A DNA stretch of 64,000 nucleotides, from the NCBI RefSeq assembly GCF_009914755.1, contig NC_060928.1. One strand, given 5' to 3'. This DNA is from the human T2T-CHM13v2.0 reference genome, Homo sapiens. Each line of letters opens with the position of its first letter. Positions within the stretch are counted from its first letter, which is position 1. This document shows positions 45,136-47,109 of this stretch, in pieces. The position numbers and the translations under genes are program-made. The notes below the pieces were generated by a model. The model searched no databases and was not told where the DNA came from. It worked only from the letters and a program-made list of their open reading frames with translations.

Positions 45136-47109
45136 ATGCATCATTTCTTTATTAAAAGAAAGAGGAATAGTGAAGTGAAATATACAGAAGCATGTTCAAG
45201 TTCATCTGTTGAATCTGGAATTGTGAATAGTGACAATATTGAGAAAAATACTGACTCCAATCTGCAAACTTCAACTTCATTTGAGCCACATTTCAAAAAG
45301 AAAAAAGTAAGTGCAAGACGTTATAATGAAGATTACTTAAAATATGGCTTTATCAAATGTGAAAAACCCTTTGAAAATGACAGACCTCAGTGTGTTATTT
45401 GTAATAATATTCTTGCGAATGAAAGCTTAAAACCTTCGAAATTAAAAAGGCACTTAGAAACTCAGCATGCTGAACTTATTGATAAGCCTCTTGAATATTT
45501 TCAAAGAAAGAAAAAAGACATAAAGTTATCAACACAATTTCTTAGTTGTTCTACTGCTGTTAGTGAGAAAGCCTTATTATCATCATATTTAGTTGCATAT
45601 CGTGTGGCAAAAGAGAAAATAGCTAACACAGCTGCTGAAAAAATTATTCTTCCAGCATGTTTGGATATGGTGCGTACAATATTTGATGATAAATCAGCTG
45701 ATAAATTAAAAACTATACCTAATGATAACACAGTATCTCTTCGAATTTGTACTATTGCAGAACATTTAGAAACAATGCTTATTACTCGTTTACAGTCTGG
45801 TATAGATTTTGCAATCCAGCTTGATGAAAGCACTGATATTGGAAGCTGCACAACACTTTTAGTTTATGTCAGATATGCGTGGCAAGATGATTTTTTGGAG
45901 GATTTTTTGTGTTTTTTAAATTTAACCTCACACCTAAGTGGATTAGATATTTTTACAGAATTAGAAAGGCGCATAGTTGGCCAATATAAATTAAACTGGA
46001 AAAACTGTAAAGGAATTACAAGTGATGGCACAGCAACCATGACTGGAAAACATAGCAGAGTAATTAAAAAATTACTAGAAGTTACTAATAATGGTGCTGT
46101 GTGGAATCATTGTTTTATACATCGTGAAGGTTTAGCATCCAGAGAAATTCCACAGAATCTCATGGAAGTATTGAAAAATGCAGTGAAAGTTGTTAATTTT
46201 ATTAAAGGAAGCTCATTGAATAGCCGGCTTCTTGAAACATTTTGTTCAGAGATTGGAACTAATCATACCCACTTACTATATCATACCAAAATTCGTTGGT
46301 TGTCTCAAGGGAAAATACTAAGCAGGGTTTATGAGCTCAGGAATGAGATTCACTTTTTTCTCATTGAAAAAAAATCTCATTTGGCAAGTATTTTTGAAGA
46401 TGATACTTGGGTAACAAAATTGGCATATTTAACTGATATTTTTAGCATTCTTAATGAACTGAGTTTAAAACTACAGGGGAAAAACAGTGATGTATTCCAA
46501 CATGTTGAACGTATCCAGGGATTTCGAAAGACATTATTGTTATGGCAAGTAAGACTTAAAAGTAATCGTCCTAGCTATTACATGTTTCCAAGATTTTTGC
46601 AGCATATTGAAGAGAATATTATTAATGAAAACATTTTGAAAGAAATAAAATTAGAGATATTGTTGCATCTCACTTCTCTGTCTCAAACTTTTAACCATTT
46701 CTTTCCAGAAGAAAAATTTGAAACATTAAGGGAAAACAGTTGGGTAAAAGATCCATTTGCTTTTCGAAACCCTGAATCAATAATTGAGCTAAACTTGGTG
46801 CCTGAAGAAGAGAATGAATTATTGCAGCTTAGTTCTTCATATACATTGAAGAATGATTATGAAACCTTAAGTTTATCAGCATTTTGGATGAAGGTAAAGG
46901 AAGACTTTCCATTGTTAAGTAGAAAGAGTGTCCTGCTATTGCTACCATTCACAACAACTAGTTTGTGTGAACTAGGGTTTTCCATCTTAACGCAGTTAAA
47001 AACAAAGGAAAGAAATGGGCTGAATTGTGCAGCAGTTATGCGGGTAGCATTATCTTCCTGTGTTCCAGACTGGAATGAACTTATGAACAGGCAAGCACAC
47101 CCATCATAG
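45136..47109 (+). CDS. FAM200B: FAM200B, domesticated hAT/Buster (Charlie-type) transposase, 657 aa
   Basis: uninterrupted 1974-nt ORF; BED finger C86-x2-C89...H106-x4-H111; QLD(230)ESTD, TSD(297)G, C326xxH329, R387W388, LCE(612)LGFS; C-terminal QAHPS; lies between FBXL5 and BST1. Confidence 0.95.

What the first reader, a model, noticed from the sequence alone, without database searches (positions are those of the whole stretch)
45136..47109. FAM200B retains BED finger, complete D-D-E triad, CxxH and RW motifs
Seen: C86/C89/H106/H111, D230, D297, E612, C326xxH329, R387-W388 and basic NLS-like stretches ([13 protein letters not shown]). Established: these are the DNA-binding and catalytic motifs of hAT transposases such as Hermes and TcBuster. 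Inference: a poorly characterised human protein that may keep nuclease or strand-transfer chemistry, or bind cognate MITE ends. I found no right terminus, so the locus itself looks immobilised.
Basis: partly seen in the sequence, partly recalled or inferred. Interest (0 to 1): 0.7.

Follow-up and report, generated by a model that had tools for sequence, protein, structure and literature searches.

The report
Tamed transposase keeps triad, loses grip
The human gene FAM200B is an old cut-and-paste transposase kept by placental mammals; it still has its zinc finger and catalytic residues but has lost several residues that its relatives keep, so it is likely a DNA-binding protein and probably no longer a working transposase.

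Summary
The inference of retained activity is weaker. 44 of 62 acidic core residues are equally invariant, 4 of 6 human Buster-derived genes keep D-D-E, and triad retention in domesticated ZBED genes is published (PMC3606216). FAM200B departs at 18 of 106 core sites conserved in transposase-like relatives (nearest non-mammalian relative: 2). Fixed changes include R628G, matching Hermes R588, a TIR contact (PMC4763223), R202L with a one-residue deletion, E385K and Y609S/N. The left end survives at 44657 and matches a ~250-bp MITE family (41 hits, control 0). The right end is missing here but lies behind paralogue FAM200A, which keeps those arginines but has swapped its BED finger for a SCAN-gene N-terminus. 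Best reading: an immobilised, purifying-selected (dN/dS 0.17) DNA-binding protein, likely not transposition-competent. Residual nicking (~20%) or a FAM200A/FAM200B hybrid enzyme (~7%) is not excluded.

The parts
44649..44656 (+). Candidate left target-site duplication, 8 bp with central TA
   Evidence: Directly precedes the family's left terminus; in 23 copies with a recognisable left TIR, flank position 4 is T in 17 and position 5 is A in 10. No right-hand partner survives.
44657..44778 (+). Left terminal inverted repeat and subterminal region of the ancestral element, now 5' UTR
   Evidence: nhmmer E 6.9e-17 to a profile of 27 other genomic copies; 93 of 122 bases identical to the family consensus
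44681..44717 (+). Two copies of a short subterminal repeat (44681-44686, 44712-44717); candidate BED binding motif (inferred)
   Evidence: Motif class occurs 56 times in 27 MITE copies against 14.9 in shuffles (max 28); motif picked by eye and partly inside the search pattern
45136..47109 (+). FAM200B coding sequence, 657 aa, domesticated Buster-family hAT transposase
   Evidence: dN/dS 0.17 against FAM200A over 538 codons
45391..45468 (+). BED-type zinc finger C86, C89, H106, H111
   Evidence: region 56-125 has 53 of 70 positions invariant in 14 orthologues against 356 of 657 overall
45718..45741 (+). Derived changes: one-residue deletion after P195 and R202L (aligns to Hermes R149)
   Evidence: Gap in 14 of 14 FAM200B, 0 of 22 FAM200A, 0 of 60 transposase-like relatives; Leu in 14 of 14 against R/K in 58 of 60; alignment
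45823..45825 (+). D230, first catalytic acid
46024..46026 (+). D297, second catalytic acid (followed by A299T)
46111..46122 (+). C326xxH329 motif
46288..46299 (+). E385K charge reversal directly before the R387-W388 motif
   Evidence: K in 13 and T in 1 of 14 FAM200B; E/D in 57 of 60 relatives; E in 22 of 22 FAM200A
46960..46971 (+). Y609S and catalytic E612
   Evidence: Y in 60 of 60 relatives, S/N in 14 of 14 FAM200B; E612 aligns to Hermes E572
47017..47019 (+). G628, in place of the arginine equivalent to Hermes R588 (TIR contact)
   Evidence: G in 14 of 14 FAM200B, R in 22 of 22 FAM200A, R/K in 55 of 60 relatives; PMC4763223 passage
47110..47250 (+). Remnant of the element's 3' flank with a polyA signal; ends before the right TIR
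   Evidence: Aligns to FAM200A's 3' flank up to the start of its right-end match; retrocopies end at about 47252-47270
47251..47460 (.). Unrelated dispersed repeat (L2-like, name recalled) where the right end would be
   Evidence: 6 dispersed 71-81% matches begin here

Best explanation
FAM200B is an immobilised Buster/Charlie hAT transposase gene kept under purifying selection in placental mammals, which likely works as an oligomeric DNA-binding nuclear protein through its BED finger and is likely unable to transpose. Shown: fold, motifs, selection, surviving left end, lost right end, and fixed substitutions at family-conserved sites. Inferred: the BED finger reads short subterminal-repeat-like motifs of the old element, possibly in surviving MITE copies. 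Also inferred: loss of the end-contact arginines (R628G, R202L with a deletion) plus E385K and Y609S stops the core from seating a transposon tip in the active site. The triad persists because the whole fold is constrained, not because cleavage is selected.
For: BED region is the most invariant part (53 of 70 against 356 of 657). Human FAM200B differs at 18 of 106 transposase-conserved core sites; the closest non-mammalian relative P0044 differs at 2, the 60 relatives at a median of 3 and at most 12 (biased low because they define the set). Other human Buster genes differ at 10-29. G628 aligns to Hermes R588, reported as a TIR contact; a quadruple mutant of this basic patch inactivated Kat1 cleavage (PMC4763223 passage). 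Of 21 class-conserved basic sites, 628 (4 of 6) and 202 (3 of 6) are the ones most often lost among six human Buster genes. Triad invariance equals background (44 of 62 acidic sites). PMC3606216 (passages) reports DDE conservation in ZBED regulators and suggests a non-transposition role. PMC10368747 (passages) says enzymatic activity is rarely retained in domesticated hAT proteins and DNA binding often is.
Against: D-D-E, CxxH, RW and R626 (Hermes R586) are all intact in 14 of 14 full-length orthologues; of the six human Buster genes, only FAM200B and SCAND3 keep BED, triad, CxxH and RW together. No single-site mutant data for R588 were seen, and the DNA contact of R149 is recalled: the Hermes structure papers were not held. 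The recurrent arginine loss was noticed after the fact, and arginine codons mutate readily. FAM200B's own left end is as diverged from consensus (24%) as a neutral copy, so self-binding is not under visible selection. There are no binding data of any kind.
Confidence: 0.62

Rival explanations
1. FAM200B keeps a metal-dependent nicking or strand-transfer activity on MITE ends or other DNA, used for a host purpose (like Kat1 or THAP9), with end recognition shifted by the substitutions.
For: Complete D-D-E, CxxH and RW in 14 of 14 full-length orthologues from primates to aardvark; Hermes-like fold; a cognate MITE family exists; Kat1 is a domesticated hAT enzyme with catalysis (PMC4763223 passages).
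Against: Invariance is at background. End-contact changes are fixed. MITE copies are old and about 25% diverged. Several FAM200B-type records dropped from the count as broken have lost catalytic or finger residues: muntjac D230G, cheetah D230N with no E612, unnamed P0049 H329Q, P0020 C86S/H106Y. They may be pseudogenes or retrocopies.
Confidence: 0.2
2. FAM200B acts mainly as a protein scaffold or chromatin cofactor; the transposase core is an interaction surface and sequence-specific DNA binding is minor.
For: The insertion domain is as invariant (155 of 265) as the catalytic segments (56 of 113 and 25 of 50). FAM200A is kept under selection without any BED finger, and one unnamed record has a FAM200B core behind a FAM200A-type N-terminus (P0019).
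Against: The BED region is the best-conserved part of FAM200B.
Confidence: 0.12
3. FAM200B and FAM200A form mixed oligomers that rebuild one transposase-like machine: FAM200B supplies the BED finger, FAM200A the intact end-contact residues.
For: Reciprocal retention: B has BED and the left end, A has R202, E385, R628 and the right end. Hermes uses BED domains from several protomers (PMC10368747 passages). The predicted complex of B 125-340 with A 41-255 gave weak support: 0.38 against best control 0.00, runs agreeing in at least 91% of contacts, partner pLDDT at least 69. That mark was reached by 51 of 78 solved pairs and 2 of 108 mismatches, and at 0.60 or under by 5 solved pairs and all 4 passing mismatches.
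Against: The pass is weak, may come from the solved Hermes dimer, and cannot tell hetero- from homodimer in proteins 80% alike. Both genes share 11 departures from the transposase consensus, and human FAM200A has 13 in all. No co-expression or interaction data were seen.
Confidence: 0.06

Closest known systems
Buster-family hAT transposases (TcBuster, SPIN, AnBuster; human Charlie fossils)
   Same: One ORF of about 600-680 aa with BED, DNA-binding and DDE domains and short TIRs (PMC12637253 passages); 63% identity to the nearest full-length non-mammalian relative, 62% to a partial coelacanth record
   Different: No right TIR, single copy, 18 of 106 conserved core sites changed, purifying selection as a host gene
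Domesticated Buster genes ZBED5, ZMYM6 (ZBED7), ZBED8, SCAND3 (ZBED9)
   Same: Host genes from Buster transposases (PMC3606216 passages); similar erosion (10-29 of 106 sites); three of the four also lost R628. Names for the chr1 and chr5 loci are recalled from position.
   Different: Separate branch of the tree (quick tree). FAM200B keeps D-D-E and CxxH, whereas ZMYM6 has D-D-D, ZBED8 A-D-E with CxxN, and ZBED5 CxxY.
FAM200A
   Same: Sister gene (support 100), 80% identical, triad, CxxH and RW intact
   Different: No BED finger; N-terminus 26 of 35 identical to a SCAN-domain gene 475 kb away; keeps R202, E385, R628 and the element's right end, lacks the left end in 20 kb upstream
Hermes transposase (Musca domestica)
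   Same: Best structural match, Z 18.1, rmsd 5.2 A, 381 aligned; D180/D248/E572/R586 equivalents present
   Different: 12-16% identity; R149 and R588 equivalents are Leu and Gly
Kat1 (Kluyveromyces lactis)
   Same: Domesticated hAT protein with BED, DDE and CxxH
   Different: Kat1 has proven cleavage and keeps the basic patch, which it needs; no activity shown for FAM200B

Membership tests
hAT transposase-derived protein, Buster family | RNase H-like fold split by a helical insertion domain, as in Hermes | tested here: met
hAT transposase-derived protein, Buster family | D-D-E triad with CxxH and RW motifs | tested here: met
hAT transposase-derived protein, Buster family | N-terminal BED finger (CCHH) | tested here: met
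   Ligands present and invariant in 14 of 14; Pfam score 17.2, under the cut-off 20.6, as in relatives
hAT transposase-derived protein, Buster family | Groups with Buster/Charlie-type proteins including ZBED5 and SCAND3 | tested here: met
   33-39% identity to four other human Buster genes; tree (quick method, midpoint root, no Ac outgroup)
Autonomous hAT transposon | Two TIRs flanked by an 8-bp TSD | tested here: not met
   Left end only; no right-end profile match at E<=5 in 47101-64000
Autonomous hAT transposon | Multiple young near-identical copies | tested here: not met
   Close genomic matches are FAM200A and retrocopies; MITE-type end about 24% diverged
Domesticated transposase gene | Orthologues across species and purifying selection | tested here: met
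   14 full-length FAM200B-type proteins forming one clade; dN/dS 0.17; synteny itself was not checked
Catalytically active domesticated transposase (Kat1, THAP9, RAG1 type) | End-contact basic residues retained | tested here: not met
   R628G and R202L fixed; R626 kept
Catalytically active domesticated transposase (Kat1, THAP9, RAG1 type) | Triad more constrained than background | tested here: inconclusive
   Invariant, but so are 44 of 62 acidic core sites (31 of 62 across both paralogues)
Catalytically active domesticated transposase (Kat1, THAP9, RAG1 type) | Triad-dependent cleavage or strand transfer | not testable with these tools
   needs an assay
ZBED-type transcription factor | Sequence-specific binding and gene regulation in cells | not testable with these tools
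   No ChIP or SELEX data available; the two FAM200B papers read in passages are expression and association studies

The most novel reading that the evidence does not exclude
FAM200B and FAM200A are two complementary halves of one ancestral transposase: B brings the BED finger, A the intact end-gripping and catalytic core. Together they form a mixed oligomer that still binds and cuts the ends of a 100-million-year-old human MITE family, making them a cryptic endogenous human nuclease or transposase.
Probability: 0.07. Interest if true: 0.85.

Novelty: new member of a known kind. Interest (0 to 1): 0.36.

Why it matters
Why domesticated hAT genes keep their D-D-E triad is a stated open question (PMC3606216). 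FAM200B makes it testable. The cognate MITE ends are identified. The residues that differ from working-type relatives are listed. The same two arginines are the basic sites most often lost across six human Buster genes, which suggests domestication disarms end engagement while sparing the active site. If residual cleavage exists, it would add a rare human enzyme of transposase origin and a possible source of genome rearrangement. Otherwise it is one more uncharacterised transposase-derived DNA-binding gene.

Tried and rejected
Single-sequence PDB search found nothing; the profile and fold searches were needed. A weak alignment of the MITE right end to 47143-47242 (score 64; 7 of 200 and 1 of 200 shuffles as high) was rejected: the stretch is AT-rich, aligns to a more internal part of FAM200A's flank, and nhmmer does not report it. 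The idea that the two extra matches to the left end (chr5, chr10) were MITEs was rejected: both extend into exon 2 upstream of the terminus and the chr5 one includes spliced exon 1, so they are retrocopies. A299T is not FAM200B-specific, since human FAM200A has it too. FAM200B as a retrocopy of a transposon mRNA was rejected because it keeps the left TIR. FAM200A as a retrocopy of FAM200B was rejected because it keeps the right end beyond the polyA signal. The careful tree did not finish; the quick tree is quoted. TSD evidence for the MITE family is weak: 8 of 28 copies qualified, mean 3.75 of 8 matches against 2.88 shuffled, p 0.04. Ten literature searches listed no paper on FAM200B as a transposase; only the top 40 of 53, 40 of 82 and 25 of 534 were listed in the three widest. 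Feschotte and Pritham 2007, Arensburger 2011, Hickman 2014 and 2018, and Sinzelle 2009 were not held, and bioRxiv supplements (Cosby 2020) were not seen; these may list the gene. Earlier scan findings were not available.

Full report
Observation. A single-sequence PDB search was blank. An AlphaFold model from a 26-row alignment (pLDDT 74.6, pTM 0.66) matches Hermes far above other folds (Foldseek E 7e-9; VIA Z 18.1, rmsd 5.2 A, 381 aligned, next family Z 11.8). A 62-sequence profile aligns to Hermes at E 3e-4 and places D230, D297 and E612 on D180, D248 and E572 (numbering from a constant chain offset; the two N-terminal stretches are weak on their own).

Conservation. The homologue search gave 404 hits among 7992 scored candidates, 120 listed. 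I split the listed proteins into 14 full-length FAM200B-type (human included; primates, colugo, treeshrew, zebra, hippo, whale, bat, aardvark and three unnamed), 22 FAM200A-type and 60 near-full-length non-mammalian relatives. I take the 60 as transposase-like; none is shown to be active and a few may be domesticated. The other 25 rows were dropped as partial, broken, chimeric or SCAND3. All 14 keep BED ligands, D-D-E, CxxH and RW. Among the dropped FAM200B-type rows, muntjac has D230G, cheetah D230N and no E612, P0049 H329Q and P0020 a broken finger; these may be pseudogenes or retrocopies. No named rodent or marsupial protein was listed. Human FAM200B against human FAM200A gives dN 0.10, dS 0.60, ratio 0.17 over 538 codons; against three retrocopies 0.50-0.60. 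The gene is under purifying selection and predates the aardvark split.

The triad is not special. 288 of 511 core positions and 44 of 62 acidic ones are invariant in the 14 orthologues, so three invariant acids are expected about a third of the time. The human genome holds six full-ORF genes closest to FAM200B. D-D-E is intact in four (FAM200B, FAM200A, SCAND3, ZBED5); ZMYM6 has D-D-D and ZBED8 A-D-E (the chr1 and chr5 names are recalled, chr6 groups with a named SCAND3, chr11 fits the table in PMC3606216). Hayward 2013 (PMC3606216, passages) already notes DDE conservation across domesticated ZBED genes and suggests a role other than cut-and-paste.

Of 106 core sites conserved in at least 90% of the 60 relatives, human FAM200B differs at 18, FAM200A at 13, the other four genes at 10-29, and the nearest non-mammalian relative (P0044, 63% identical) at 2 (the relatives' median of 3 is biased low because they define the set). 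Changes fixed in FAM200B but not FAM200A: a one-residue deletion after P195, R202L, T268S, E385K/T, Y609S/N (this site also varies in 5 of 22 FAM200A) and R628G. G628 aligns to Hermes R588 and L202 to R149. PMC4763223 (passages) names K585, R586 and R588 as TIR contacts and reports that a quadruple mutant of that patch kills Kat1 cleavage. The R149 contact is recalled, not read. Among 21 class-conserved basic sites, 628 (lost in 4 of 6) and 202 (3 of 6) are the most often lost in the six human genes. This was noticed after the fact, and two non-basic sites are lost in 5 of 6.

Element ends. A left terminus begins at 44657 after a TA-centred 8-mer. A 26-base subterminal pattern has 41 genomic matches at up to 3 mismatches, reversed control 0; 30 were fetched. 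They define a roughly 250-bp MITE with short inverted termini (I recall it as MER112/Charlie9, unverified). A profile from 27 copies matches the FAM200B left end at E 6.9e-17 over its first half. Its second half matches behind FAM200A (E 2e-5, composition-biased; local score 90 against shuffle mean 46, 0 of 200), in gene orientation after an Alu. Left half at B and right half at A is what an internal-deletion derivative predicts, so the MITE is very likely cognate. Behind FAM200B the flank follows FAM200A's to the start of the right end and then meets another repeat at 47251; no right end is found to 64000. FAM200A has no left end or BED remnant in 20 kb upstream; its first 35 residues come from a SCAN-domain gene at chr7:101.26 Mb (26 of 35 identical; ZKSCAN1 by recall). 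Whether A and B are two insertions or one duplicated gene is open; they share 11 departures from the transposase consensus.

Mechanism. The best reading (0.62) is a non-transposing, oligomeric DNA-binding protein. The BED region is its most invariant part (53 of 70). In Hermes, BED domains read subterminal repeats (PMC10368747, passages). The same paper says domesticated hAT proteins rarely keep enzymatic activity. A candidate subterminal motif is enriched in the MITE (56 against 14.9 in shuffles; partly built in by the search pattern). Residual nicking (0.20), a scaffold role (0.12) and a FAM200A/B hybrid (0.06) remain. The complex prediction gave weak support only: 0.38 against 0.00, at least 91% contact agreement, partner pLDDT at least 69. 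At 0.60 or under, 5 of 78 solved pairs and all 4 passing mismatches reached the mark, and likeness to the solved Hermes dimer may explain the pass.

Novelty. The gene is annotated, and its kind, a domesticated Buster transposase with its triad, is known. Ten searches listed no paper treating FAM200B as a transposase. The two FAM200B papers read in passages are biomarker and association studies (PMC12436529, PMC13538097). 'FAM200' is absent from the main text of PMC3606216, PMC10027918 and bioRxiv 2020.05.07.082677. Key reviews and supplements were not available, and I recall that such lists include it under older names. All papers were seen as search passages, none in full. The additions here are the disarming substitutions, the cognate MITE and the reciprocal anatomy of the two paralogues. 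Interest 0.36.

Noticed in passing
window 8434-8684 (-): A second, near-complete copy of the same MITE family (E 1.2e-14), with 5 of 8 matching flank bases, inside FBXL5 intronic sequence.
   Followed up: partly
G000:C11:10501943-10511188, C5:77.25 Mb, C10:95.25 Mb, C23:36.85 Mb, C11:63.42 Mb: At least five FAM200B retrocopies (70-95% identity); the chr11 and chr5 copies join exon 1 to exon 2. This implies repeated germ-line expression. The chr5 and chr10 copies end near 44750, which suggests a short non-coding transcript polyadenylated inside the element's left end.
   Followed up: partly
L002:3097-3216 and L060:1571-2026: The FAM200A N-terminus is taken from the first coding exon of a SCAN-domain zinc-finger gene 475 kb away and includes a VKVE SUMO-type motif (motif meaning recalled).
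   Followed up: partly
protein P0019 (unnamed record, 571 aa): Chimera with a FAM200A-type N-terminus on a FAM200B-type core, closest in core to the broken cheetah FAM200B model; possible gene conversion or fusion in one lineage.
   Followed up: no
protein list: No named rodent FAM200A or FAM200B appears, and no branch in the tree suggests one; possible loss in rodents. The search was limited to the best-sharing candidates.
   Followed up: no
P0016, P0017: New World monkey FAM200B isoform models end before E612 (596 and 595 aa); possibly spliced forms without the third catalytic acid.
   Followed up: no
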